Assembly: GCF_036365525.1 (NCBI RefSeq)
Contig: NC_090388.1
Location: 22,561,619 to 22,625,618, forward strand
Length of the DNA stretch: 64,000 bases
Reading direction: 5' to 3'
Source of the DNA: Heterodontus francisci
Lineage: Eukaryota
The notes under the pieces are model-generated. The model worked only from the letters and a program-made list of their open reading frames with translations, made no database searches and had not been told where the DNA came from. The position numbers and the translations under genes are program-made. The stretch's first letter is position 1; each line of letters starts with the position of its first letter. Shown in pieces: positions 10,015-51,410 of the stretch.

Positions 10015-10306
10015 AGTACAATTCACGATCAGTACAAAAATTATGCATTTTCCCCAAGAGGAGTACAATTTTTGCTGTTAATTAAAATTTTAATATGAAT
10101 GCCACAGGGAGTGGGAAGGGGTTCCAAGGTGGTTTTATATCACTGTCTTTCTTAAATACAAACACCATGTAAAGATATTAAAGTGAAAATCTCTTCTTTA
10201 AAGTTTCAAATATTTGGATAAAGTTACAAAAAATACATAATTGCATATTTTTATAGAGAACATATAAATTGTAACGTGTTAATTATTTGTTACTGCTGCA
10301 TTACAG

Positions 10307-10402
10307 GAACTAAAATTAAAAGATGAAGAATGTGAGCGATTATCCAAAGTCAGAGACCAACTGGGCCAAGAACTAGAAGAACTTACAGCTAGTTTATTTG
10401 AG
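10307..10402 (+). CDS. RAB3IP: RAB3IP coding exon (Sec2/GEF coiled coil): [32 protein letters not shown]
   Basis: ttacag|GAA...GAG|gtttgt, 96 nt, phase 0/0; peptide recognised as Rabin8. Confidence 0.95.
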
Positions 10403-17321: not shown

Positions 17322-17434
17322 CTGGCTTCAACGATTCTTGAAGCTGTGGAAGGCAATACACTAAGCATTGAACCAGTTGGATTTCAGCCACTTCCTGTTG
17401 TGAAAGCTTCTGCAGTGGAGTGTGGAGGACCCAA
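17322..17434 (+). CDS. RAB3IP: RAB3IP coding exon: [37 protein letters not shown](K/N)
   Basis: ttctccag|CTG...CCCAA|gtaagt, 113 nt, ends in phase 2. Confidence 0.95.
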
Positions 17435-19720
17435 GTAAGTTAAACTTGGATTTTACTACTTTTAATTTTTAAATGTTAATCCTGCATTTATTTTATACTG
17501 GGGGAAAATAAATGCACTTCTCTCTTTGCAAGTTAAATAATTGACACAGATCCAAGACATGATGGTCATTATTGTTTTTAAGCAATAGATATCAGGAACC
17601 AAATAATAAGACCCTAATTCATTGGATTGAATATGTAATTGAATGTAAGAGTGCAGCTAGAGAGGTTTATCTGCATCATCTGAATTCTTTGATGAAATTA
17701 TTGTGTTTCTCTTCAGTGTTCCTTGCTTTACTATTTGGATTTACACATTGCTTCAGAATTTTTTTCTAACTTGACCACCACTGAGTATTGATGTACAATG
17801 GTGAGGGCTCTCAACCAGAACAAAAAAGTTAATCAGTTGTATTGCATATAGTGGGTTCTTGATGCACCTGACTTTATTACATATTAATGTTTTGAATTGT
17901 TCCCAATCTCCAGCATATTAAAATATAACCTAATATCTATGTTCTAATATATTACATTTTTTGAATATGTGCTCACTTCCTTTGTCAAGTCTTTCCATTA
18001 AAACTTCTATAGTTACATTTATAATGGAAACCACCTATATAACTCGTCTTGTTATAATTACGTTCCTGCCAATGGTATAGCTATCGGACCGCAGTTTGGT
18101 TTCCTATCTCAGCCTATTTGCACTATTATGCCCCAGTCACCTCTGCTTCTCTGCTTTTCAGGTTACTATATGGTATGTTACTTAAAAATTAAAATGTTAT
18201 ATAAAATAGAAAGGGAATTGTCTTACTTGAAAATGGAAACTGAATTATGCTTGCTCGCATTATCCTCCACTCACTAACCCTACCATTCAATGATTACACC
18301 TGGTCTTAATTTCCCATATGCCACAGGCGGTCAATTAAAAATCTTGTGTCTGCATGCAGTTCCTGTCTACAGAACTTCCTGTTATGATTTTCATTAAACT
18401 TTTTTCTATTACTGCCACTACTTGTGTTCAAAATTAAAACGTAAACTGTTTATGTAAATGATTCACTGTGCAATTACACCATCTGTCCATTGAGTGGTCT
18501 GTATTATCTGCACCCCACAAATCGCTCAAGATGCTTTGTAAACATTATTTCACCCGTGTTTTGATGTTAGAAATACTCTAATTGTTTACACCCTTGCGAC
18601 AGAGATTCTGATCACTAATCCCAAAGAGCTATAGTACAAAACATATATGGATGGGGACTTTATTTTAATTAGATTTTAAAAAAATGTTTAAGTTTGAAAG
18701 CAAACAAAGCATATTTGAGTAAACTAGGAAGGAAGAAGTGCAGGCCATAAGGAAGCAGGTTGGCAGGAGGCCCTCTACTATCTTACCACCAGTTCTCATG
18801 GAAAGTGAATTAAAGGGGTGTGGGGGGTCATGGATGGAGGGTTAAGAGTGAGCTGTATGAATATGGCACAAATAGGAGGGGCAGGTGCAGGTATGTAGTT
18901 CATGGGAAAACCCAGGGTAATGGCAGTAATGGGGTGGTAGGAAGGGGAGGGAGTAGTGGGAAGGTAAAGATGAGATGTGAGGGAAGCACAAGTGCTTGTT
19001 TAAGTGGGATGGGAAGGGAGTCATTGGTCACTGAGAGCTGCGTTGTCCCCACAATCCCTTTTCCAAATGCAACCTGCAGCTGTTAGGCTTCCCGAAAGGA
19101 AAGAAGGAATGTACAGGCAGAAGTGAAAATAAAAAGCTGCAAGATGAAAAGATAGGGAAAGAGAAGCAGAAGAGGAGAGACTGAGAAACAGCAATGCAAA
19201 GGAAACAGTCAGGTATGAAAGAGACGCTGAGTAATTTTGTAATTGAAGTGAGCTGCACTCATCTGTTCCTGGCCTAGTTTCATGCTTTCCAGTAAAATCC
19301 ATGCTCTCTGGTTACGGTCGCCTGTTTGTTACTCTCCTGGCCTACCAGATTCAACCATCTGGTTTCACTGCTGTTCCCTTAGCCATCAGTGTTTGTCTTT
19401 AAAATGTTTTTTTTGGAGCTAGATATGTTCAGCTGTCTTGAGATTTAAGAAGGATTTGAATGTATTTCTGTACATGGTCCTAGGGAACTTACTGGTCAGT
19501 AACATTTAGCTGTATTCATTGTACAAAGAAATCACCAATGTATGTTACCTCTTAAAGCGTGCAACTTAAAATCATCTCCACTCATTATATTTCCTAAAAA
19601 CTTGATTTAATTTTAAATTTAACATGAGAGCTGTATGAGTTTCAGTTACGGAAACAGCCAGTAAAATCATGAGAACTTGAGCCAAATAGCTGGGGAGAAA
19701 AGAAGGCACATAAATGTACA

Positions 19721-20829: not shown

Positions 20830-21310
20830 CAGAAGGGAGTGGAGGAGAAGCGGTGATCGCGGGTGGGGACAGGAAAGAGAAGTGGCAATTGAGGCGGTGA
20901 TCGCAGGAGAGAGAGGCGAAGAGAAAGCGGTGATCATGGATGAGAGAGGGGAATAGAAAGTGGTGATCGCAGGTGAGAGAGGCGAAGAGAAAGCGGTGAT
21001 CGCAGGTGAGAGAGGCGAAGAGAAAGCGGTGATCGCAGGTGAGAGAGGCGAAGAGAAAGCGGCGATCGCAGGAGAGGCGAAGAGAAAGCGGCGATCGCAG
21101 GAGAGGCGAAGAGAAAGCGGCGATCGCAGGAGAGAGAAGGGAAGAGAAAGTGGCGGTCACAGGAAAGAGCGAGGAAGAGGAAGCGGCGATCGCAGGAGGG
21201 AGCGGGGAAGAGAAAGCAGCAATTGAGGCGGTGATCGTGGGAGGGAGCAGGGAAGAGAAAGTGGGGCTCGCGGGAGGAAGAGGGGAAGAGAAAGTGGCAG
21301 TTGCAGGTGG
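20830..21310. repeat. Purine-rich, CpG-containing minisatellite (29-33-bp units)
   Basis: Units gcggtgatcgcaggtgagagaggcgaagagaaa (33 nt) and gcggcgatcgcaggagaggcgaagagaaa (29 nt), degenerating at both ends. Confidence 0.9.
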
Positions 21311-22510
21311 GAGTGGGGTACTTTTGGGTGGGTGATGGAAGTGGCAATTGAGGGGTGTGGGAGCTTGGGTTTAATTCATTTTTTTGTGTCAAGTTGAGCT
21401 GTGCCACCTTTATTACTGGCAGCTGCCTGAGACGTCGCAGACGGTGATGTTTCAGTTGATGTGGCTACATTTGTGCAGTGACAGTAGTACGCTACCTAGT
21501 GGCTGCATTGTCAGCAAACACAGCCTTTAGTTTTACTTTGTTTCTCGCTTCTGCTTTCGGATGGCAACTGTTCATTCTGCCATCGCACCACCTCTAGGTA
21601 AATCTAGATCTAGGTCACAAAAGATCATTTTCAGGAAGGTGCTTTTTTCAATTTGGACCCTTTAAAAGCCTGTGAATTGGACAAAGAGCAGGCATTTGAA
21701 ATCTTTGCTTGACCTGTTTGTAGCGAGAGAGAAAAGACCTAGAAAAGTGCAACCTCTCTTTCTGTAACGGTCACTCGCATCTCTTGAAAAGGAATTCTGC
21801 ATTTGAAAGGTAGCAGATTCCTGTTGTCTCCAGTCTCTGAAGAATTTCTGCCTCCTATGTTCTAACAAAATCTTGAAATCTAAAGAATTCTTCTACTGCT
21901 AGCCTGTTGCTTCAAAACCCAAGCAGACCTGTTGCTACACCCCTGATGGCAGACCTATGTGGCGCCTGCTGCAGTTAAATTGCGTGAACACCTACCCATC
22001 ACAGACTGTTCATCAACCTCGCCTGGAGAGACTTCAGGTGGTATCTGACTATTCGACTCTGGGATACCTCACCCTATCAAAAACATCCTACCAGAACGTA
22101 AACCTCAATTATTTTTTATTATTCCTTCTATTCCTAAGAAACAGTTATAATCCAAAACCCCCTTTTGAAACTGATTAACCATTTCTTTTGAATGTATGTG
22201 TGTGTGCACATGAGGGTTAAGAGAATAAGGGGTTTTTCATGTATAGATTTATCTCATTTGTAGTCACGACCTATTATTTCTTTTCTAATAAATAGTTAAT
22301 GATATTGTTTAAAGAAACCTGGTTTGGTATGCTTTATTCTGGGGGAAATATAGTGTGTTTAATTTGGCTATTCTTCGGCAGGTGGGAAATTTTATTTGAT
22401 ATTGTTGTGGAGAAAAGAACCACTCTCTTGAGTCTATGGGATTAAAGTAAATAAAAGTTTTTAATCAAGCACCGGCACAAGGGAGAAGTGCCTGGTGAAA
22501 CAGTCTGTAG

Positions 22511-23479: not shown

Positions 23480-25140
23480 ACCACAGCGGATGCCAAGATG
23501 TACCCTTTATTGGCCAGCATTACCATCGGTACTGCTTGGGATGCCATCAGCCTTTGGTAACAACAAATATAGAGACCAACTTACAGGACCGCAACTGCTG
23601 CCACGATCCTTCCCTCTTTCCACCAGTTATACTGCATCCTTGCCATCTTGGCTCAATTGCTGGCCAAGTCCTCCAATAATCTAGCCACTCCTTTGGCTAG
23701 GTTCACCTGCATCTGGCCCCTCGTGATTGCTTGACGGCTTTACTCCATAAACCTCCTATTGGTGGCTAGGGCCCTTTGCACCACTTCCCGGGCTATTCTT
23801 TCCGGGACATTGTCAATATTTAGCGAACCATCCCACCCTGGACTGAATATATATGCGCAAGGACCTTGCCGCAAGGTGCAAATCCCCCCTGCTCGAAAGG
23901 AGTCAGTGATCTGTAGGCAGAAGGTGTGTTTATTATCATACTTCAATCCTCCGTACAAGAATCTTGTCCTGTTAGTCAAAAAGTACCACTGCGTGGGGGA
24001 GGTTTGGGCTGCCTTAAGGGCTCTTTCAAGAGGGCTGATCGATACCACTATGGCAGAGTCATTACTGATGGGTCTCAGTATTATTTTATTTTTATTTTTA
24101 TTTAGAGATACAGCACTGAAACAGGCCCTTCGACCCACCGAGTCTGTGCCGCCAACAACCACCCATTTATACTAACCCTGCAGTAAGGGCGGCACAGTGG
24201 CGCAGTGGTTAGCACCGCAGCCTCACAGCTCCAGATACCCGGGTTCAATTCTAGGTACTGTCTGTGTGGAGTTTGCAAGTTCTCCCTGTGTCTGTGTGGG
24301 TTTCCTCCGGGTGCTCCGGCTTCCTCCCACCGCCAAAGACTTGCAGGTGATAGGTAAATTGGCTGTTATAAATTGCCCCTAGTGTAGGTAGGTGGTAGGG
24401 CATATGGGATTACTGTAGGGTTAGTATAAATGGGTGGTTGTTGGTCAGCGCAGACTCGGTGGGCCGAAGGGCCTGTTTCAGTGCCGTATCACAAATAAAT
24501 AAATTCCCTACCATCTACCCTACACTAGGGGCAGTTTACAATGGCCAATTTACCTATCAACCTGCAATTCTTTGGCTGTGGGAGGAAACCGGAGCACCCG
24601 GCGAAAACACACATGGTCACAGGGAGAACTTGCAAACTCCACACAGGTAGTACCCAGAATTGAACCCGGGTCTCTGGAGCTGTGAGGCTGCGGTGCTAAC
24701 CACTGCACCACTGTGCCGCCCTTGCAAGAACCGATGATGTAATGCTGCAACTCAGTACGACATTCTCATGTCATCAAAAGGGTACTATTTAAACCTGGAG
24801 CTATATACCCCCGGGGTCCTACTTGATACACCAACTCATCCCTCACCACCCCCAAGAATACGAATTTATAACCCCCTAATAAGTACCATTTGCATGTTCT
24901 CGAGGCACAATTATTAGGAACTTGATAGAGGCCATGTAACTACCATTTCCTGTCTTTCCTCATGTAAATTAATAAGGTCTAATCTTTTCACAGCCTGATG
25001 TATGTGTTGCGGGATCGTACCAAATCTTGTATCTTCATTATCTGAAACAACTTTATCACCCACATCCTGAGCCAACATGTCACAGGCCCTTCCCTTTGAG
25101 TTCTCAAACAAATGGAGGCAGATTAGTCCATCCTGCCATG
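23480..25140 (-). pseudogene. Decayed env-position ORF of the ERV-like element
   Basis: Cys-containing reading frames with stops and frameshifts, split by SINEs. Ends in a helix-like stretch and the hydrophobic segment WWKEGRIVAAVAVL*VGLYICCY shortly before the PPT. Confidence 0.5.
24085..24721 (-). mobile_element. HE1/V-SINE-like tRNA SINE interrupted by a second copy (24187-24503, + strand)
   Basis: tRNA head gggcggcacagtggcgcagtggttagc, V-domain gtgggtttcctccgggtgctccgg and CR1-like tail; the inner copy is in the opposite orientation. Confidence 0.9.
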
Positions 25141-38235: not shown

Positions 38236-38759
38236 ACTTTATTAATGTCTTAAGTTTAGACTTACCATAAGTACACTGACATTGCTCAGCTCCAAACTGG
38301 TCTGACAATGTAGCTCTTTAGAACTCCACTGCCTGATTGCATACATTAAAATAATGATCCCTTTTTCTATGTGGATGCTGGTAAAAGAGAGAGCATGTCA
38401 TATTACCACTATAGGTATGGACTCATTATTTGAAGAAGTTTAGCTTCTGCATAGAAAGCTTCCTATGGTCTACTCTGCATTTCACTTTCTGACCTATTGG
38501 CATGATTGAAGGAAGTGCTTTGTTTACTGCTGTATTTAATTTCTGTTGCTTGAGGTTCATTGCTCTTCTGGGTAAGGTCTAACCCATACTGTGGAACAAA
38601 ATGGGTAAGAGCAACAATGACATAGAATCATGGAATAATTAGTTACAGAAGGTCATTTAGCCAATCAAGACCCAAGTTTCTAAAGGTTTGCTGGCATTTT
38701 ATTCTCTCTACAATGATGATAATTCCTATTTATAGGGATCAAACTTCTTTAAAAGAATG

Positions 38760-38953
38760 AGCAAAATACTGCAGCTGCTGGAACTCTGAAATGAGAACAG
38801 AAAGTGCTGGAAATACTCAGCAGTCTGGCAGCATCTGTGGAGAGAACCCCCCCAACCACCACCCCGGAAGGGTCGCAGACCTAAAACGTTAACTCTGTTT
38901 CTCACTCCACAGATGCTGCCAGACCTGCTGAGTATTTCCAGCACTTCCCATTG
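38760..38953. mobile_element. Minimal Penelope insertion: two inverted pLTRs
   Basis: aagtgctggaaatactcagcagtctggcagcatctgtggag pairs with ctccacagatgctgccagacctgctgagtatttccagcactt; perfect 12-bp TSD tttaaaagaatg. Confidence 0.85.
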
Positions 38954-39216
38954 TTTAAAAGAATGGCAAGGACTGCTTTTATAATAGGTAAATTAACATT
39001 GATCAATTTTTGAAATCCTGTTACTACTAACAATGAGTTAACTAAATCTGCCTACTTTGTAATGGCAGTAGTTTTTTTAAAAAAAGCTTATAGAATTTCT
39101 TTTGTATGTAATACAAAAATTCTCATCTTTATTCTTGCTTTTTATTTTATGTGTTGCTGAAGCTGCTTTTCTTCCTGTTGTTTTGCATCTTGTTTTTTCC
39201 TCACTTCTCTATATAG

Positions 39217-39240
39217 TGGACGGAGAGCTGAAATTGTAAT
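39217..39240 (+). CDS. RAB3IP: Probable 24-nt alternative RAB3IP microexon (K replaced by NGRRAEIVI)
   Basis: Long polypyrimidine tract, atatag|TGGACGGAGAGCTGAAATTGTAAT|gtaagt; phase 2/2 matches the flanking exons and adds no stop. Confidence 0.75.
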
Positions 39241-39865
39241 GTAAGTTATTTTTGCACTTCTCATGTACAGTGGTGTAATTGATATTGAATCCTTCTCAAG
39301 ATAACTGATTCTCTAGAACACCAAAATCAATCTTACTACCTCTCTAGGGTTTGTTTCACGAGCAAATAATTCGTTAGCACAGAAAATTTTGATATATGAT
39401 GGACAATTATTTTCAGGTAATATACAAGGCTTCCTAATGAAGCTGCTGGACATCTAGATTAACAGGGCTGGAAGTTGAGAATTCATAGTCAAATGGTACT
39501 TTAATATTTAAAGTTGTAGTTTAAAACACAATTTTGTAAAGAACATCCTCACCAAGGAATGTTGAACCGGGTTCACTGATTTTATCCTACATTCACTAGT
39601 TTATTATTGAGTACTGATCATGTTATTCCTTATCAATAGGTAATATAACTTGAGTAATTTGTGATAATTGTACATAGTGTCCAAAACTTTATTAGTAAAA
39701 TAGAAGCTAATGACAATTTGAGCTCAGTTAGCTGATGCCAGATGGATATGGGATCAGTTCTACTCATTCAAGAAGTAATTAGCCAGAGTTCACACTTCTG
39801 ATTGATGTCCAGTTCCTCCTGTTGGAAAGTGTGTGCGGGTGAGGATAGCACAGACTCTGTTCTGG

Positions 39866-42212
39866 TCACAATACCGTAGAGGAGGAATTCTTGGAGTGTA
39901 TACAGCATGGTTTTCTGGACCAATATGTTGAGGAACCAACTAGAGAACAGGCCATCCTAGACTGGGTATCGTGTAATGAGAGAGGAATAATTGGCAATCT
40001 AGTGGTGCGAGACCCCTTGGGGATGAGCGACCATAATATGATAGAATTCTTCATCAAGATGGAGAGTGACGTAGTTGATTCTGAGACAAGGGTCCTGAAT
40101 CTTAGTAAAGGAAACTACGAAGGTATGAGGCGCGAGTTGGCCATGATGGATTGGGAAACTACGTAAAGGGATGACGGTGGATTGGCAATGGCAAATATTT
40201 GACGAGCGCATGGATGAACTGCAACAATTGTTTATCCCTGTCTGGCGCAAAAGTAAAACGGGAAAGGTAGCCAAACCATGGCTTACAAGGGAAATTAGAG
40301 ATAGCATTAGATCCAAGGAAGAGGCATATAAATTTGCCAGGAAAAACAACAGACCTGAGGATTGGGAGCAGTTTAGAATTCAGCAAAGGAGGACAAAGGG
40401 ATTGATTAAGAAGGGGAAGATAGAGTATGAGAGCAAGCTTGGGGAGAACTTAAAAACTGACTCTAAAAGTTTCTGTAGGTATGTGAAGAGAAAAAGATTG
40501 GTGAAGACATATGTAGGTCCCTTACAGTCAGAAACAGGGGAATTTATTATGGGGAATAAAGAAATGGCTGACCAACTAAATGCATACTTTGGTTCTGTCT
40601 TCACAAAGGAGGACACAAATATCATACCAGAAATGTTGGGGAACACAGGGCTTAGTGAGCGAGGAACTGAAAGAAATCAGTATTGGTAGAGAAATGGTGT
40701 TGCGGAAATTGATGGGATTGAAGGCCGATAAATCCCTAGGGTCTGATGGTATGCATCCCAGTGTACTTAAGGAAGTGGCCCTAGAAATAGTGGATGCTTT
40801 GGTGGTCATCTTGCAAGATTCTATAGACTCTGGAACAGTTCCTACAGATTGGAGGGTAGCTAATGCAACCCCACTATTTAAAAAGGGAGGTAAAGAGAAA
40901 GCAGGGAATAATAGACCAGTCAGCCTGACGTCAGTAGTGGGGAAAGTTCTAGAGTCCATTATCAAAGATTTTATAGCAGAGCGCTTGGAGAACAGTGGTA
41001 GAATCAGACAGAATCAGCATGGATTTACGAAAGGGAAATCATGCTAAACAAATCTACTAGAATTCTTTGAGGATGTAACTAGTAGAGTTGATGGGGAGCC
41101 AGTGGATGTGGTTTATTTGGACTTTCAGAAGGCTTTCGATGAAGCCCCACATAAGAGATTAGCATGTAAAATTAAAGCGCATGGGATTGGGGGGAGTGTA
41201 TTGTGATGGATAGAAAATTGGTTGGCAGACAGGAAACAAAGAGTAGGGATAAATGGGTCTTTTTCCGAATGGCAGGCAATGTCTAGTGGGGTACCGCAGG
41301 GATTGGTACTAGGACCCCAGCTATTCACAATATACATTAAAGATTTAGATGAGGGAACTAAATGTAATATCTCCAGAACTGGGTGGGAGGATGCAGAGAG
41401 GCTTCAGGGTGATTTGGACAAGTTGAGTGAGTGGGCTAATGCATGGCAGATGCAGTATAATGTGGATATATGTGAGGTTATCCACTTTGGTAGCAAAAAC
41501 AGGAAGGCAGATTATTATCTGGCTATAAACTGAGAGAGGGGAATATGCAGCGAAACCTGGGTGTTCTCGTACACCAGTCGCTGAAGGTAAGCATGCAGGT
41601 GCAACAGGCGGTAAAAAAGGCAAATGGTATGTTGGCCTTCATAGCGAGAAGATTCGAGTACAGGAGCAGGGATGTCTTGCTGCAATTATATAGGGCCTTG
41701 GTGAGGCCACACCTGGAATATTGTGTGCAGTTTTGGTCTTATGTGAGGAAGGATGTTCTTGCTATCGAGAGTGCAGCGAAGGTTTACCAGACTGAATCCT
41801 GGGATGGCAGGAATGACATATGAGGAGAGATTGAGTCGGTTAGGAGTATATTCGCTGGAGTTAAGAAGAGTGAGAGGGGATCTCATAGAAACCTATAAAA
41901 TTCTAACAGGACTTGACAGGGTAGATGCAGAAAGGATGTTCCCAATGGTGGGGGAGTCCAGAACCAGGGGTCATAGTCTAAGGATACGGGGTAAACTTGT
42001 CAGGACTGAGAAAGAAATTTCTTCACCCAGAGAGTGGTGAGCCTGTGGAATTCGCTACCACAGAAAGCAGCTGAGGCCAAAACATTGTAAAGGGATCAAA
42101 GGGAATGGGGCGAAAGCTGGAACAGGACTGAGCTGGATGATCAGCCATGATCATAATGAATGGCGGAGCAGGCTCGAAGGGCCGAATGGCCTACTATTTT
42201 CTATGTTTCTAT
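39866..42212 (+). mobile_element. CR1 LINE, 5'-truncated (end of APE domain through RT and tail)
   Basis: LGMSDHNMIEF, NNRPVSLTS, GVPQGLVLGP, LEYCVQFWS; (ttctatg)n tail. Confidence 0.93.
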
Positions 42213-44071
42213 GTTGCAAAAGTTGCTACCACGTATTGGGCTCACACGAAGAATGGTCAGTTCGGATGCATTGTCCCTTTGAGAAATTCATGCCCTTTAT
42301 GCTGCCTGTTTGATAAAGAGATTTTCCTGAAGTTTATTCTGTACAAAGGGTAAGGTAGCATCGTAGTTACATTGTTGGGTTAGTGATCCAGAGATGGGAG
42401 TTCATATCTCATCGTGTAATCTGGAAATAAAACATAGACATCAGTAAAAGTGACCATGAAGCTGTCAGATTGCAAAAATCCTAACTGGCTCAGTAATGCC
42501 CTTCAGGGAATGAAATCTGTCATCCTTACCCAGTCTGGCACAAATCTGATTGATTCTTACCTGCCCTCTGAAATGGGGTAGCTAGCCACTGGCTTACTCA
42601 TTAACTTTTGTTCCAGTAGTTCTGGTCTTTTTTTGTCAAAGCTTTTTTTTAAACACAAGATGCTGGACCTTTTGAAATCTTGAAACTGACCATTATCAAA
42701 ATCATATTATAGCTTGAATCTAAACTCTTCCATGCCACATAGTTCGCAATTCCAATAAGTACTAAGTTGAAATTGTACTTTACATTTCCTTAAGTTCATT
42801 TTGTATCGTAACTGATTTCAGTTGTGGAAGATTCTTGTTTCTCCCGTAATTTTTTCCATGCAGAGCTATAGCAGTTAGATTATAGGGATAGTGAAGTAAA
42901 TGATCTTTGTGACATAACAACATAAGGGATGGTATTTTAAGGACCTTCTGTTCTGCTTACCCAGTGATTTCACTTCAAAAAGCAATTAACTGAAGGCGAA
43001 GCATTATGAGATGTCCCAAGGACATGTTAGAAGTTCTTTCTATATCAGAATATTTCCATGAAATGCCTATTTGTATTGATAAAACATATTAAAATGCACA
43101 TGGATACAGACTATTTGGCAATTAATTTTACAAGAGGCAACATTCTTGAGTCATTTTCCCAGTTCACTAACTTAAAATTATCAGCTATGTAACATAAAAG
43201 AAACACACCAGACAAGTTTCATTTTGAATACAAACTCTTCCCTTACAAAAATGCAGCGGTCCTTTAAAAGATCAAGACATTAGTAGCCTGAAATTGAGTA
43301 TCAGATTCAGGCACTTATGCTTCAGGTTTGTTACATTTAAATGCTGTTACGTTTGTAATATATTGACACAAATTTTTGATTTATGCTATGCATATGAATA
43401 TTATAACAAACTAATGAGCTACTCAATTAGCATAAAAATCAGTTATTTGCTTTGGGAAGTGGTGTCACTGGATAAGCAGGGCAGAAGATTCCTCAAAATG
43501 TCTTTCCTTATGCTGTTATGCTACAAAGATCCTTTACTCTGCTATCCTGAAAAACTAACTGCTATAACTCTGGCACGGGGCAAATTACATGGGATGCATG
43601 CAATTAAAAATTCTGTCATATTTCAGAAACAAAGTTTCCTGGAGAAACTTGGCAAAGGAAAAATGAGCAATGGTGACCCATTTTGACAAAAGATTAGAAA
43701 AGCATCATTAGAATGGGTTCAGTCATATGAGTCATAGCGTTGTAGAGTAATTAGAAAGCCATTCGGTCCTTCAAGTCCATGTCTGCTCTCCATGGAGCTA
43801 TTCATCTGCACACTTCTTAATCATGACCCCTAAATTTAAGTCTAAATCATTTATATATAACCACAAAAGGTATGGGGCCTAGTACTGAGCCCTGCAGAAC
43901 CCCATTGGAAACAGCCTTCCAGTCTCAAAAACAGCCATCAACCATTACGTTTTGCTTCCTGCCTCTGAGCCAATTTTGGATCCAGCTTGCCACTTTGCCT
44001 TGGATCCCATCGGCTTTTCGTGACCAGTCTGCCAATTGGGACCTCATCAAAAGCCTTGCTAAAATCCATAT

Positions 44072-44720
44072 CTTTTTTCCTTCTTTGGCCTCCTTGTCTC
44101 GAGAGACAATGGGTAAGCGCCTAGAGGTGGTCAGTGGTTTGTGAAGCAGTGCCTGGAGTGGCTTTAAAGGCCAATTCTAAAGTAACAGACTCTTTCACAG
44201 GCGCTGCAGATAAAATTGGCTGTCGAGGCTGTTACACAGTTGGCTCTCTCCTTGCGCTTCTGTCTTTTTCCTGCCAACTGCTAAGTCTCTTCGACTCGCC
44301 ACTCTTTAGCCCCGCCTTTATAGCTATCTGCCAGCTCTGGCAATCACTGGCAACTGATTCCCGCGACTTGTGATCAATGTCACAGGACTTCATATCGCGC
44401 TTGCAAGCGTCTTTAAAGCGGAGACATGGACGGCCGGTGGGTCTGATACCAGTGACGAGCTCGCTGTACAATGAGTCCTTGGGAATCCTGCCATCTTCCA
44501 TGCGGCTCACATGGCCAAGCCATCTCAAGCGCCACTGGCTCAGTAGGGTGCATATGCTGGGGATGTTGGCCACCTTGAGGACTTCTGCGTTGGAGATACG
44601 GTCCTGCCACCTGATGCCAAGGATACTCCGGAGGCAGCGAAGATGGAATGAGTTGAGACGTCGCTCTTGGCTGACATACATTGTCCAGGCCTCGCTGCTG
44701 TAGGGTAAGGTACTGAGGAC
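44072..44720 (-). mobile_element. RTE-clade LINE copy 1, 5'-truncated
   Basis: RLRWLGHVSRMEDGRIPK; flanks ctaaaatccatat/cttaaatctatat. Confidence 0.9.
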
Positions 44721-45431
44721 CTTAAATCTATATAGATTAAATCAAATGTGCTACCCTCATCAGCCCTCCTTTTTACCTACTCAAAAAATTCAATCCAGTT
44801 GGATGCGACCTTCCCTTAACAAATCTGTGCTGACTGTCTTAATCTGTGCCTTTCCAAATAATGATCTCTACTGTCTCTCAGAAAGTTTTCCAATAATTTT
44901 CCCACCACCAAGGTTAGACTGACTGGCCTGTAATTACTTGGGCTATCCCTTTCTCCCTTTTTAAACAACGGTACAATGTTAGCCATCGTCCAGCAACATG
45001 AGTGTAGCCAGACAGGATTGGAAAATGGTGGCCAGAGCCTCTCTTATTTTTTCCCTTGTTTTCCTTTGCAACCTGGAATACATTTCACCCAGGCCTGGTG
45101 ATTTATCCACTTTCAAAGATGCTAAGTCCCTTAGTTCCTTTCTATGTTTATACCATCCAATACTTCATGCTCCTCTTCCTTTACTACAATGTCTGCATTG
45201 TCCCACTCTTTTGTAAAGGCAGATGCAAAGCACTCATTAAGACCAATGTCCGTGTCGTCGTCTTCCGTACACGGGTTCCGTTCTTGGTCTCTAATTGGCC
45301 GTACTCTTTCCTTAGTTATAGTCTTACTTTTTATGTATTTATAAAACATCTTCGGGTCTGTCTTTATTTTACTTGCCAATATTTTTTCATGCCCTCTTTG
45401 TTTTCCTAATTTTCTTTTTAATTTCACTGCT

Positions 45432-46310
45432 TCTTCTTCTTTGGCCTCCTTGTCTCGAGAGACAATGAGTAAGCGCCTGGAGGTGGTCAGCGGTTTGTGC
45501 ACCAGCGCCTGGAGTGGCTATAAAGGCCAATTCTAGCGTGACAGACTCTTCCACAGGTGCTGTAGATAAAATTGGTTGTCGGGGCTGTTACACAGTTGGC
45601 TCTCTCCTTGCGCTTCTGTCTTTTTTCCTGCCAACTGCTAAATCTCTTCGACTCGCCATGCTTTAGCTCTGCCTTTATGGTTGCCTGCCAGCTCTGGCGA
45701 TCGCTGGCAACTGGCTCCCATGACTTGTGATCAATGTCACAGGACTTCATGTCGTGTTTGCAGACGTCTTTAAAGCGGAGCCATGGACGGCCGGTGGGTC
45801 TGGTACCAGTGACGAGCTCACTGTACAATGTGTCCTTGGGGATCCTGCCATTTTCCATGCGGCTCACATGGCCAAGCCATCTCGGGCGCAGCTGGCTTAG
45901 TAGGGTGTATATGCTGGGGATGTTGGCCGCCTCGAGGACTTCTGTGTTGGAGATACGGTCCTGCCACCTGATGCCAAGGATTCTCCGGAGGCAGTGAAGA
46001 TGGAATGAATTGAGACGTCGCTCTTGGCTGACATACGTTGTCCAGGCCTCGCTGCCGTAGAGCAAGGTACTGAGGACACAGGCTTGATACACTTGGACTT
46101 AAGTGTTCTGTGTCAGTGCGCCATTTTCTCACACTCTCTTGGCCAGTCTGGACATAGCAGAGGAAGCCTTTCCCATTCGCTTGTTTAATTCTGCATCGAG
46201 AGACAGGTTACTGGCGATAGTTGAGCCTAGGTAGGTGAACTCTTGAACCACTTCCAGAGTGTGGTCGCCGATATTGATAGATGGGGCATTTCTGACGTCC
46301 TGTCCCATGG
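45432..46310 (-). mobile_element. RTE-clade LINE copy 2
   Basis: 201-aa ORF, (gaa)n tail and a perfect 13-bp TSD taatttcactgct (45419-45431, 46311-46323). Confidence 0.92.
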
Positions 46311-47435
46311 TAATTTCACTGCTACGCTTTCAATATTCCTTTTGACTTTCTGCAGTATTAAGCTCGCGGTAGCCAACATGAAGCTTTTTTTTTGAAGAAA
46401 ACTTTATCCTACTCTATGATCTTTGATATCTGGGGAGGAAGGTTTAGGTTTGAGTCCCACCCTTTTTCTTTGTGGAAACGTATTTGTTCTGAACCCTTTT
46501 GTATCTCCTCCTTGAATGCCTCCCACTGCTCAAGATTTACCTTCAAATAGCTGTTGCCAGTTCACTTTTGCCAAACCACATCTTGGCTTAATAATATTGG
46601 CCTTTCCCCAGTTTAGAACTTTTATTCCTGGTCTATCTCTATCTTTTTCCATAACTACTCTAAATCTAACTGGATTAAGATCAATGGCACTAACATGCTC
46701 TCCCACTGATAGCCTTTCCAAATGCCCAGAATCATTCCCTTTAACTAAGTCCAGAACTGCCCACACTCTTGTTGGGCTTGCAACCTACTGCCTAAAAGAA
46801 AGTTCTCTTGAATGTATTTTAAGAATTCTGCTCCTTCTGCACTTTTTATACTGGTTTTATCCTAGTTGAAATCTCCTGCTATCACTGCCCTATTGTTTCT
46901 GCACTTCTCAGCGATTTGTCTACATATTTGCTTTTCTATCTCCCTCTGACTGGGGGTCTATAGTATACTCCCAGCAGTGTCATTACTCCTTTATTGTTCT
47001 TCAGTTCAGTACAAATAGCCTTATTTGATGCTCCTTCTAGCATATCATCCCTCCTCACAGCTGTGATTGTTTCTTGAACCAATATTGAGACCACCCCTCT
47101 CTCCTTTTTCTTATCCTTCTGTATCTTGTCTGAAAACCCTGGGACCAAGAATGCTGAGCTGCCATTCCTGCCCTTCTTTCAGCCATGTCTCAGTAATAGC
47201 TATAATCTCTTACTCCCACCTGTCAATCTGTGCTGTCAGTTCACTAGCCTCTTTCATTGAAGTATATACCATTAAGCACTGCCAAACTTCTTTATTGTCT
47301 ATTTTCTGGCCTTTGTTTCCTGAAAGATTGCCTAGTATGAGTATTGTTATCAATATTTCAGATGCACTGCGTGCAAGGTGTTGTGTTTTATCTCACTGAT
47401 TTAAGAGAGTATTAAACAGAATTTTTCAGTGTATT

Positions 47436-48896
47436 CTTTTGGGCCTCCTTATCTCGAGAGACAATGGATACGCGCCTGGAGGTGGTCAGTGGTTTGTGAA
47501 GCAGCGCCTGGAGTGGCTATAAAGGCCAATTCTGGAGTGACAGGCTCTTCCACAGGTGCTGCAGAGAAATTTGTTTGTTGGGGCTGTTGCACAGTTGGCT
47601 CTCCCCTTTCGCCTCTGTCTTTTTTCCTGCCAACTACTAAGTCTCTTCGACTCGCCACAATTTAGCCCTGTCTTTATGGCTGCCCGCCAGCTCTGGCGAA
47701 TGCTGGCAACTGACTCCCACGACTTGTGATCAATGTCACACGATTTCATGTCGCGTTTGCAGACGTCTTTATAACGGAGACATGGACGGCCGGTGGGTCT
47801 GATACCAGTGGCGAGCTCGCTGTACAATGTGTCTTTGGGGATCCTGCCATCTTCCATGCGGCTCACATGGCCAAGCCATCTCAAGCGCCGCTGACTCAGT
47901 AGTGTGTATAAGCTGGGGGTGTTGGCCGCTTCAAGGACTTCTGTGTTGGAGATATAGTCCTGCCACCTGATGCCAAGTATTCTCCGAAGGCAGCGAAGAT
48001 GGAATGAATTGAGACGTCGCTCTTGGCTGGCATACGTTGTCCAGGCCTCGCTGCCGTAGAGCAAGGTACTGAGGACACAGGCCTGATACACTCGGACTTT
48101 TGTGTTCCGTGTCAGTGCGCCATTTTCCCACACTCTCTTGGCCAGTCTGGACATAGCAGTGGAAGCCTTACCCATGCGCTTGTTGATTTCTGCATCTAGA
48201 GACAGGTTACTGGTGATAGTTGAGCCTAGGTAGGTGAACTCTTGAACCACTTCCAGAGCGTGGTCGCCAATATTGATGGATGGAGCATTTCTGACATCCT
48301 GCCCCATGATGTTCGTTTTCTTGAGGCTGATGGTTAGGCCAAATTCATTGCAGGCAGACGCAAACCTGTCGATGAGACTCTGCAGGCATTCTTCAGTGTG
48401 AGATGTTAAAGCAGCATCGTCAGCAAAGAGGAGTTCTCTGATGAGGACTTTCCGTACTTTGGTCTTCGCTCTTAGACGGGCAAGGTTGAACAACCTGCCC
48501 CCTGATCTTGTGTGGAGGAAAATTCCTTCTTCAGAGGATTTGAACGCATGTGAAAGCAGCAGGGAGAAGAAAATCCCAAAAAGTGTGGGTGCGAGAACAC
48601 AGCCCTGTTTCACACCACTCAGGATAGGAAAGGGCTCTGATGAGGAGCCACCATGTTGAATTGTGCCTTTCATATTGTCATGGAATGAGGTGATGATACT
48701 TAGTAGCTTTGGTGGACATCCGATCTTTTCTAGTAGTCTGAAGAGACCACGTCTGCTGACGAGGTCAAAGGCTTTGGTGAGATCAATGAAAGCAATGTAG
48801 AGGGGCATCTGTTGTTCACGGCATTTCTCCTGTATCTGACGAAGGGAGAACAGCATGTCAATAGTCGATCTCTCTGCACGAAAGCCACACTGTGCC
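47436..48896 (-). mobile_element. RTE-clade LINE copy 3 with an uninterrupted 456-aa RT/C-terminal ORF
   Basis: FIDLTKAFD, GVKQGCVLAP, LLFADD and C-terminal CxxC...H; TSD tcagtgtatt (47426-47435, 48897-48906). Confidence 0.95.
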
Positions 48897-49936
48897 TCAG
48901 TGTATTAGAGGTAAAGAATATATGACAGCACCCTACAATACCCCCACATTAATGCAGTAGGGATATGACAACATCCTATAATACCCCCACATTAATGCAA
49001 CAGGGATATATGACAATATTCCCCCTGCTGCAAGCACCCACACTGTGTATTTGAATTACTCAGTGACCACCCAGCAGGTTTCTCTTACCCAACCTTGGAG
49101 TCGGTCCAACAGTGCACATGTTGAGCCCAGAGTTCTTGTACTTCTGCGAGGGTCCATCGTCAATATAGATCTCATAGTGTGAGGCCCTATGAAGTGTAGT
49201 GGTTATGTTATTGGACTAGCAGTCCAGAGTCTTGGACTACTGACGCAGAGAATTTAAACTGGCACTGTGATGGTTTGAGAATTTGAATTAAAAAAAATAT
49301 GGAAATTAAAACCTGGAGTCAGTAAAAAGTGACTGTGAAGCTATTGGATTGTCATTAAAAAAAACCAAAAACAACTGGTTTGTTAATCTTTAAGGATTGA
49401 AACCTGCCATCCTTAACTGGTCTGGCCTGTATGTGACTCTATTTCCACACCAGTGTGGTTGACTTTTAACTCCCCTCTGAAGTGGTCTAGAATGCCATTT
49501 AGTTGTATCAAACCGCTCAGTGGTTCAAGAAAGCAGCCCACAATAACTTTCTCAAGGTAATGGGCAATAAATGCTGGACTTGACAGTGCCACCCGCATCC
49601 CAAGGATGATTTATTAAAAAAAAAAGCTATACTGTGCTATTATTCATGTGAAAGACTCTTCCCCTCCCACTCCTGGGCGTCTCCTTTGCAGGGGCATACC
49701 TCTTTTTTTTACCTCGGGTGGAATATCCTCCATTTTTTCCCGCAGGTGATTGAAAAGGAAGGGCAGAGGACACAAGGGAGTGTTAACCCCATTACAGAAA
49801 GCTTGGTGATTAGAAAACTGTTCATGGTAAATGAATCCATCTAGAAGGACACAAACAGCAGGTGTATGGGAACACCATCATCTTCAGGTTCCTTTCCAAA
49901 ATCTCACACCATCCAGACTTGGACATATATCACCAT

Positions 49937-50295
49937 TTAGATTAGATTAGATTAGAGATACAGCACTGAAACAGGCCCTTCGGCCCACCGAGTCTGTGCC
50001 GAACATCAGCCACCCATTTATACTAATCCTACACTAATCCGACATTCCTACCAAACATCCCCACCTGTTCCTATATTTCCCTACCACCTACCTATACTAG
50101 TGACAATTTATAATGGCCAATTTACCTATCAACCTGCAAGTCTTTTGGCTTGTGGGAGGAAACCGGAGCACCCGGAGGAAACCCACGCAGACACAGGGAG
50201 AACTTGCAAACTCCACACAGGCAGTACCAGGAATCGAACCCGGGTCCCTGGAGCTGTGAGGCTGCGGTGCTAACCACTGCGCCACTGTGCCACCC
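49937..50295 (-). mobile_element. HE1/V-SINE-like SINE
   Basis: Full-length reverse complement of the 57210 copy with a (tctaa)n tail. Confidence 0.9.
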
Positions 50296-50870
50296 ACTAA
50301 TTTCTTTATCGTCACTGGGTCACAATCTTGGAACACTCTACCTAGCAGCATGGTTGGGAGTATCTTCACCACATGGACTGCAGTGGAGCAAGAAGACTCA
50401 CCACCGCCTTCTCAAGGACAACTAGGACAATAAATGCTGGCCTTTCCAGTGACGCCCGTTTTCCGAAAATGAATAAAATAAACAAATGAAGGATTTGCCA
50501 TTTGGTGTCAGGATACAGTGGAAAATGCTACCAAATTCATATATCCCAAAATCCTAATGCTTAAACATTTTGGTTAATAAGTGCCTTGAATCACTTTTTC
50601 GCTCTTTCAAAGCAAGCTTTCCTCACTGTTGGATTGGTAGGGAAAATGGAAGGTGAGAGATCCTCCTAAGTTTTCAGTTCTGGTATAATATTTATATATA
50701 TTCATCATATGTTTATCCATTCTCATAATTTTGTTTAGCATATTGTGTCCTGTGCCATAATTTCACTGGAGTAAATATTTGATCACTTATTTAGCTTTTG
50801 ATCATGATTGCATAATTTAATACAAGTTTGCCTCATCAACTTTCTTATTTTATCTTATCTGTTTTTACAG

Positions 50871-50970
50871 AAAGTGTGCCCTGAGTGGTCAAACTAAAAC
50901 TTGCAAACATCGAATTAAGTTGGGAGATTCCAGTAGCTACTACTATGTTTCACCATTTTGTAGATACAGG
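50871..50970 (+). CDS. RAB3IP: RAB3IP coding exon: [33 protein letters not shown]
   Basis: tttttacag|AAAG...AGG|gtaagg, 100 nt, phase 2/0. Confidence 0.95.
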
Positions 50971-51095
50971 GTAAGGAATGATGCATCTTCTATTTTTTTT
51001 AAAGCATTATTGTACTTCAGAAAATATTATAAACTGATAAATCATTATAGTCTGGTACAAACGAAAATTTTGTGTTTTTCTGTCTTGCTCTCTAG

Positions 51096-51165
51096 ATTAT
51101 GTCTGTATGCAACTTCTTCACTTATATTCGATATATTCAGCAGGGTCTGGTTAAACAGCAAGATG
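51096..51165 (+). CDS. RAB3IP: RAB3IP coding exon: [23 protein letters not shown]
   Basis: ctctag|ATT...GATG|gtaagt, 70 nt, phase 0/1. Confidence 0.95.
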
Positions 51166-51410
51166 GTAAGTGATGATTTTGAAAACAGTAATTGTAATTA
51201 AACCTTGTTTTAATGGCTATTAAGGAAGCATTATTGCCATTTGAGGGTTTGCTGTGATAGTTTGTAATCAAAGGCAGATTATGTACTTTGCTGCACATTG
51301 CCATGGTCCCAAAACGTGTAAGTGAAATTTTAAATTTGGCTGTGGTGGTGACATTGGTATTGGTACTTTCAAAAACAGTAGAATTGTGGATGTAGACACG
51401 TTGAAAACTA

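What the first reader, a model, noticed from the sequence alone, without database searches (positions are those of the whole stretch)
39120..39250. Hidden 24-nt microexon in the Rabin8 C-terminal domain
Seen: a TE-free island in a 33-kb interval has a ~90-nt U/C-rich tract with several UGC triplets, then AG, 24 nt and a perfect GTAAGT. It is frame- and phase-compatible, changing GGPK-KCAL to GGPNGRRAEIVI-KCAL. Known: UGC motifs near the 3' splice site typify SRRM3/4-dependent neural microexons, and the Rabin8 C-terminal region binds Rab11. Inference: a tissue-regulated isoform tuning the Rab11-Rabin8-Rab8 cascade. It is invisible to the ORF track.
Basis: partly seen in the sequence, partly recalled or inferred. 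Interest (0 to 1): 0.7.

Follow-up and report, generated by a model that had tools for sequence, protein, structure and literature searches.

The report
Ancient Rabin8 microexon shared by paralogs
A 24-base optional exon in a shark gene for the vesicle-traffic switch Rabin8 adds eight amino acids that are kept in sharks, chimaeras, bony fish and even the sister gene, and it is likely switched on mainly in retina and nerve cells, as a catalogued zebrafish exon of the same gene is.

Summary
The microexon is real: window 39217-39240, TAG|24 nt|GTAAGT, in frame in RAB3IP. It is the only one of 42 candidates in the 33.4-kb intron to pass my acceptor filter. The same 8-residue insert is annotated in isoforms of sharks, chimaera, sturgeons, gar, bowfin and many teleosts, beside skipped isoforms, so RNA-based annotation already has it. 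The paralog RAB3IL1 in this genome has a homologous 24-nt exon at the same junction, as do fish, bird and whale RAB3IL1-type models, so the exon likely predates the duplication. Cyprinids carry an 18-nt version; a zebrafish 18-nt rab3ip exon is a catalogued retina microexon, 84% included in retina and reduced in srrm3 mutants. Linking it to this junction is inferred from length. Inclusion was not seen here: 4 of 4 runs showed only skipping (tissues unknown). UGCs lie far upstream (-33 or more). The insert falls in a flexible loop 42-51 residues before the known Rab11-binding residues. Verdict: new member of a known kind; protein function untested. The scan had no earlier RAB3IP note.

The parts
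17322..17434 (+). RAB3IP coding exon upstream of the microexon (ends in phase 2, GTAAGT donor at 17435)
   Evidence: matches human Rabin8 chain 4uj3_B residues 75-112; joined directly to 50871 in 4 of 4 runs
39121..39216 (+). Extended pyrimidine tract and acceptor of the microexon: 78% pyrimidine, TGC at -81/-62/-53/-33, 52-nt AG-free zone, branch-like pentamers with A at -92 and -14 (branch point not determined)
39217..39240 (+). 24-nt cassette microexon; net +8 residues, junction reads NGRRAEIVI
   Evidence: homologous insert in 140 records; 15 of 24 nt identical to the RAB3IL1 counterpart; inclusion not observed in RNA here
39241..39246 (+). Consensus donor GTAAGT
50871..50970 (+). RAB3IP exon downstream of the microexon (KCAL...RYR)
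51096..51165 (+). RAB3IP exon holding the equivalents of the Rab11-binding residues T419/Y423/L428
61973..62055 (+). Last coding exon of RAB3IP

Best explanation
[quoted passage not shown] Shown: exon anatomy, frame, skipping, conservation across jawed fishes and in the paralog RAB3IL1. Inferred: (1) the exon arose before RAB3IP and RAB3IL1 split; (2) the long tract, strong donor and upstream UGCs let SRRM3/4 lift it from full skipping to inclusion, probably with a second retinal factor because the srrm3 effect in zebrafish is partial; (3) the insert leaves the fold and the Rab11-binding helix intact and changes a side surface (a basic G-x-R turn followed by beta-branched residues that may extend the adjoining hairpin), so it would tune which partners or membranes the Rab11-Rabin8 complex engages during high-flux transport to the photoreceptor cilium, not switch Rab11 binding off.
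For: Anatomy and rarity in the intron. In the search not aimed at the insert, 14 of 120 records carry the 9-residue junction, 5 a cyprinid 7-residue junction, 88 the skipped one and 13 do not span it. Seven same-species pairs differ in length only by these 8 residues. Among 24 distinct versions N1 and G2 are invariant, R4 in 18, E6 in 19, I/L/V7 in 24, T9 in 22. The RAB3IL1 intron of this genome has a 24-nt AG/GTAAGT exon reading NGWRAEVLT as its best candidate; sawshark, darter, plaice and dipper RAB3IL1 records and an unnamed fin-whale model of RAB3IL1 type carry the insert. Zebrafish rab3ip DreEX0060280 (18 nt): retina PSI 84.4, neural 10.65, others 1.5; srrm3-mutant eye dPSI -12.5, -20.8, -16.4 at 60 hpf, 72 hpf, 5 dpf. 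Retina microexons are enriched in cilia and vesicle-transport genes (PMC9303857, passages) and the Rab11-Rabin8-Rab8 complex acts on rhodopsin carriers (PMC11828469, listing abstract and passages). Models: same domain elements with and without the insert; insert in the loop between strand 349-353 and KCAL, pLDDT under 50 at 361-372, an extra short strand pair 380-382/389-391 in the included model; fold matches 4uj3/4uj5. Two SRRM_C-domain loci exist in this genome.
Against: No inclusion junction seen: 4 of 4 runs (3 samples, tissue unknown, contigs only) show 17434 joined to 50871. That DreEX0060280 lies at this junction is inferred from its 18-nt length; 0 of 5 named Danio records seen carry an insert and cyprinid isoforms show two other 6-residue differences, though one is an N-terminal extension and the other is the end of a long exon in this window. 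The cyprinid peptide is shorter and diverged, so its regulation need not be ancestral. The nearest UGC is at -33; if the branch point is the pentamer at -14, no UGC lies between branch point and AG; the paralog has a single TGC at -55. Downstream UAG count (3 in 200 nt, intron mean 2.5) gives no Musashi signal. The extra strand is three residues in a single-chain model without Rab11. No human orthologous event is listed.
Confidence: 0.6

Rival explanations
1. A real conserved microexon whose inclusion in sharks is pan-neuronal, endocrine or muscle-type, or driven mainly by factors other than SRRM3/4; retina enrichment is a cyprinid specialisation that came with shortening to 18 nt.
For: UGCs are distal; the srrm3 effect is partial; a neural PSI of 28.8 is given for the zebrafish exon in another tissue grouping; the insert is annotated in very many teleost genomes, not all of which need have had retina RNA.
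Against: Zebrafish muscle 2.3 and endocrine pancreas 0; UGC between branch point and AG is not strictly required for SRRM4 response (10.1101/2024.09.17.613571, passages); a chicken RAB3IL1 17-nt exon is also retina-enriched.
Confidence: 0.22
2. The insert acts directly at the Rab11, FIP3 or dimer interface and switches binding strength markedly.
For: It lies inside the Rabin8 C-terminal effector domain (PF25555); the complex rests on several weak contacts (PMC5902227, passages), so a small change could matter; strong residue conservation.
Against: The reported Rab11-binding residues are 42-51 residues downstream on a long helix; the loop is low-confidence in both models; crystal chains lack 3 to 10 residues inside the aligned range (which residues was not seen). 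Distances in the complex were not measured.
Confidence: 0.12
3. A tolerated, nearly neutral loop insertion or decaying relic with no specific job.
For: No insert in 0 of 9 named tetrapod RAB3IP records, 0 of 14 ray and skate records, and 0 of 7 bichir records that span the junction; single microexon deletions in zebrafish are reported to have small effects (PMC12626420, title and abstract start only).
Against: Sequence and length kept across cartilaginous and bony fish and across two paralogs.
Confidence: 0.05
4. A chance pseudo-exon in a long intron.
For: No inclusion read seen; 42 raw candidates exist.
Against: 8 of 9 residues match annotated catshark isoforms and a homologous exon sits in the paralog.
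Confidence: 0.01

Closest known systems
Zebrafish rab3ip microexon DreEX0060280 (VastDB; RetMIC table of PMC9303857 and neural table of PMC12626424; supplement rows seen)
   Same: Same gene; 18 nt equals the +6-residue cyprinid insert KM[AV]QTLV found at exactly this junction; skipped outside retina and brain.
   Different: 18 against 24 nt, diverged peptide; same-intron identity inferred, not mapped; no regulation data for the shark exon; neither paper's main text was seen to discuss it (rab3ip 0 occurrences in the listing).
RefSeq/UniRef RAB3IP isoforms with NG-x-R-[AS]-E-[ILV]-[VI]-[TK] (e.g. XP_072341195.1, XP_041071283.1, XP_007901933.1, XP_058841587.1)
   Same: Same position, length and sequence; paired with skipped isoforms in the same species.
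   Different: Automatic predictions with no tissue or function data; the last residue is I here, T or K elsewhere.
Retina-enriched and neural SRRM3/4-dependent microexons (RetMICs; Ciampi 2022, PMC9303857)
   Same: 3-27 nt, frame-keeping, long tract, strong donor, host gene in ciliary vesicle transport, surface loop.
   Different: UGCs distal; no human RAB3IP or RAB3IL1 row in the paper's 18 supplementary files; shared between two paralogs.
Protrudin (Zfyve27) exon L (PMC5247714; abstract and outline read)
   Same: SRRM4-dependent microexon adding 7 residues to a neuronal trafficking protein (its Rab11 link is recalled, not from a call).
   Different: Unrelated protein; UGC immediately upstream and function shown by experiment, neither true here.

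Membership tests
RAB3IP/Rabin8 gene | Sec2p GEF coiled coil plus Rabin8-like C-terminal domain; closest to RAB3IP, not RAB3IL1 | tested here: met
   paralog is a separate locus on C14
Alternative microexon | 3-27 nt, canonical AG/GT, frame-preserving | tested here: met
   24 nt
Alternative microexon | Skipped form exists | tested here: met
   4 of 4 runs
Alternative microexon | Included form exists in this species' RNA | tested here: inconclusive
   not seen (contigs, unknown tissues); annotated in related sharks
Alternative microexon | Evolutionary conservation | tested here: met
   (protein level; orthologous intron DNA not available)
SRRM3/4-dependent neural/retina microexon | UGC between branch point and acceptor AG | tested here: inconclusive
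   TGC at -33 to -81; branch point unknown; feature present in 74-79% of known cases
SRRM3/4-dependent neural/retina microexon | Long pyrimidine tract/AG-free zone and strong donor | tested here: met
   94 nt at 78%, 52-nt AG-free zone, GTAAGT; no MaxEnt score computed
SRRM3/4-dependent neural/retina microexon | Retina- or neuron-enriched inclusion | tested here: inconclusive
   only via zebrafish DreEX0060280; no tissue-labelled shark RNA
SRRM3/4-dependent neural/retina microexon | Inclusion responds to SRRM3/4 | not testable with these tools
   zebrafish counterpart dPSI -16 to -21 in srrm3 mutants; needs a minigene
Microexon that remodels a binding interface | Insert contacts Rab11, FIP3 or the second protomer | not tested
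   no complex was modelled; sequence distance to T419/Y423/L428 is 42-51 residues

The most novel reading that the evidence does not exclude
Both vertebrate Rab8-GEF paralogs inherited one photoreceptor-type microexon from their common ancestor; it builds a dedicated docking loop for outer-segment cargo traffic, was shortened in cyprinids, lost from tetrapod RAB3IP and kept in RAB3IL1 of birds and some mammals, so tetrapods may have handed the retinal isoform to the sister gene.
Probability: 0.25. Interest if true: 0.6.

Novelty: new member of a known kind. Interest (0 to 1): 0.36.

Why it matters
Rabin8 is the hinge of the Rab11-to-Rab8 cascade that carries rhodopsin to the photoreceptor cilium, and the structural and cell work I saw treats one form of its C-terminal domain. 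A second form, conserved across jawed fishes and shared with RAB3IL1, gives a concrete test of how retina microexons adapt generic trafficking machinery. It also reinterprets a zebrafish exon listed as having no human ortholog as a likely remodelled ancient exon. The class is well known and the exon is already in automatic annotations, so the surprise is moderate.

Tried and rejected
RNA: no holder on record as RNA was listed (24 runs, guessed RNA). Laying 4 runs on 38600-51400 was swamped by repeats; 15 joints were shown and 59 hidden, none of those shown was 39240-50871, and the microexon bin had no cover; contigs drop rare variants, so this is no evidence of absence. UGC enrichment is not supported against dinucleotide shuffles. 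Musashi UAG, RBFOX UGCAUG and QKI ACUAAC motifs gave nothing nearby (motif patterns recalled). Tetrapod loss could not be settled: one search listed 120 of 852 hits, all fish, and reached only a few tetrapods; cluster lists show at most 15 members. Tree (22 rows, microexon residues removed): RAB3IP clade 83/95 and bony-vertebrate RAB3IL1 clade 88/86, neither starred; hagfish and the aberrant sawshark model unresolved, so dating to a genome duplication is not shown. Literature: text searches listed no paper on a RAB3IP or RAB3IL1 microexon (1 unrelated circRNA review). Supplement searches had no rows in PMC12626420 (12 of 13 files) and PMC7821500, and only an unrelated 219-nt RAB3IL1 exon and expression rows in PMC7935315 (12 of 19 files). 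Supplements of PMC10987577 could not be read and bioRxiv supplements are closed; they may list this exon. The primary structure paper (Vetter 2015) and a related review were not held. No complex prediction was sent: no Rab11 sequence was at hand and the dimer is a solved structure. The tblastn rows for the longer catshark insert were cut from the output and were not seen.

Full report
Observation. The window lies at G000:C18:22561619-22625618 in a 6.0-Gb genome and holds the 3' part of RAB3IP (Rabin8): the exon at 17322-17434 matches human Rabin8 in PDB 4uj3, and a catshark protein maps exon by exon from about 10298 to 62052. The closest homologs are cartilaginous fishes. The proposed exon is exactly as described: TATATAG, 24 nt at 39217-39240, GTAAGT; the flanking exons end at 17434 and start at 50871, and inclusion replaces one lysine by NGRRAEIVI. 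The upstream tract (39121-39214) is 78% pyrimidine with TGC at -81, -62, -53 and -33 and a 52-nt AG-free zone. Of 42 frame-keeping candidates in the 33,436-nt intron only this one passes a simple acceptor filter; 0 of 44 pass on the antisense strand and 1 of 60 shuffles gives a pass (filter set after seeing the site). The TGC count exceeds base shuffles (2.7% reach 4) but not dinucleotide shuffles.

Conservation. In a search with the upstream exon alone, 14 of 120 listed proteins have a 9-residue junction NG-x-x-x-E-x-x-[TK], 5 have KM[AV]QTLV, 88 the skipped K, and 13 do not span the junction. A search centred on the insert listed 120 of 852 hits, all with the 9-residue form; this count is selected by design. 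Cluster look-ups add two catsharks, smooth-hound, white shark, elephant shark (chimaera), sterlet, paddlefish; gar, bowfin, eels, herring-like, catfish, characin, salmonid and percomorph records also carry it. Seven same-species pairs differ in length only by these eight residues. Over all 538 proteins held, 363 span the junction by my pattern: 213 skipped, 140 with nine residues (24 versions), 10 with seven, all ten cyprinid (names). That such predicted isoforms usually rest on RNA-seq introns is my recall, not checked. Not seen: 0 of 9 named tetrapod RAB3IP records, 0 of 14 ray and skate records, 0 of 7 bichir records spanning the junction, and the one hagfish record. These lists are partial, so loss is a lead only.

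The paralog. A search of the genome with the downstream exon found a second locus on C14, whose exons resemble RAB3IL1 records. In its 8,774-nt intron at the same junction the best candidate is again 24 nt, AG/GTAAGT, reading NGWRAEVLT, 89 nt after the upstream exon, 15 of 24 nt identical to the window's exon. Named RAB3IL1 records of sawshark, darter, plaice and dipper, and an unnamed fin-whale model that groups with jackal RAB3IL1, carry homologous inserts. The single human RAB3IL1 record seen has the skipped form. Inference: the exon was present before RAB3IP and RAB3IL1 separated. The tree recovers both paralog groups with only moderate support, so I do not date the split. More distant, unnamed representatives have a much shorter loop here (about 15 against 26 residues), which suggests that loop and exon are vertebrate additions; their taxonomy is not given.

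RNA. Four runs from three samples and three studies (two from a close relative; tissues not disclosed) each give one spliced contig in which 50871 is preceded by the last 30 bases of the 17322-17434 exon. So skipping is shown; inclusion is not. Contigs drop rare forms.

Regulation. Supplement rows of PMC9303857 list zebrafish rab3ip DreEX0060280, 18 nt, as a retina microexon (PSI 84.4 retina, 10.65 neural, 1.5 others), falling from 41.0 to 24.6 in 5-dpf srrm3-mutant eyes and by 20.8 points at 72 hpf. PMC12626424 lists it as a neural microexon (28.8 neural, 2.3 muscle, 0 endocrine pancreas) with no human event ortholog. Eighteen nucleotides equal the cyprinid insert at this junction; the two other 6-residue isoform differences in cyprinids are an N-terminal extension and the end of a long exon, so the link is likely, but no Danio record seen has the insert (0 of 5 named). 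The cyprinid peptide aligns loosely with the last seven residues of the 24-nt form, as a 6-nt downstream shift of the acceptor would give; the window's exon has such an internal AG at +9. This is inference without cyprinid DNA. Published passages say a UGC between branch point and AG is found in 74-79% of SRRM3/4 microexons and is not strictly required (10.1101/2024.09.17.613571) and that neural microexons have longer branch-to-AG distances (PMC12871342). The shark site fits if the branch point lies upstream of -33, and not if it is the pentamer at -14. The genome has two SRRM_C-domain loci (paralog identity not tested).

Protein. AlphaFold2 models of the included and skipped catshark isoforms have the same domain elements; the insert falls in the loop after strand 349-353, with pLDDT under 50 at 361-372, and its end forms a three-residue strand paired near the next cysteine. 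The domain matches 4uj3/4uj5 (Z 24.6, rmsd 1.1 over 155 residues). The residues whose mutation is reported to disrupt Rab11 binding, T419/Y423/L428 (PMC11828469, passage), map 42-51 residues after the insertion point on a long helix. I therefore favour a side surface that tunes partners over a switch at the Rab11 contact; no complex was modelled and no distance measured.

Comparison and verdict. It works like a retina/neural SRRM3-responsive microexon in a ciliary trafficking gene; membership is met for anatomy and conservation and open for tissue pattern and SRRM3/4 response in this species. The exon is in automatic annotations and its likely zebrafish counterpart is catalogued; searches listed no paper that discusses it, and closed supplements or subscription papers may. 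New here are the shared exon in both paralogs, the cyprinid remodelling and the possible tetrapod RAB3IP loss. Papers seen: supplement rows and passages for PMC9303857 and PMC12626424; passages for 10.1101/2024.09.17.613571, PMC12871342, PMC5902227, PMC11828469; abstract and outline for PMC5247714; supplement searches only for PMC12626420, PMC7821500, PMC7935315. Earlier scan notes held nothing on this gene. Interest 0.36.

Noticed in passing
G000:C14, exon starting about 46821558 (loci L004-L009): RAB3IL1 has its own 24-nt microexon at the homologous junction, only 89 nt after the upstream exon, with one TGC at -55.
   Followed up: yes
PMC9303857 supplement file 2, chicken table: Chicken RAB3IL1 has a 17-nt, frame-shifting retina-enriched exon (GgaEX2030211, PSI 30 retina, 0.5 others); whether it overlaps the 24-nt exon is unknown.
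   Followed up: no
P0338 (Bombina RAB3IP isoform X3): Protein stops one residue after GGP, ending in N, the first residue of the insert; could be a decayed microexon with a stop or an unrelated terminal exon.
   Followed up: no
P0005, P0232, P0233 (small-spotted catshark): Isoforms with 45-52 extra residues in front of the microexon-coded peptide, suggesting a further cryptic exon or extended acceptor.
   Followed up: no
window about 10298-10402: The 32-residue exon in the GEF coiled coil is skipped in many fish and rodent isoforms, most of which lack the Sec2p Pfam hit; possibly GEF-impaired forms.
   Followed up: no
alignments A2/A3: The cysteine of KCAL just after the insert is invariant and two further cysteines are at least 90% conserved across 89-91 homologs; a metal site was not tested.
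   Followed up: no
ray, skate and bichir records: No insert in 14 batoid and 7 bichir records spanning the junction; loss or missing retinal RNA.
   Followed up: partly
window 20845-21328 and 24095-24723: A 33-nt-period tandem array and a roughly 630-nt inverted-repeat element with a related copy near 49950-50295 lie in the same intron.
   Followed up: no
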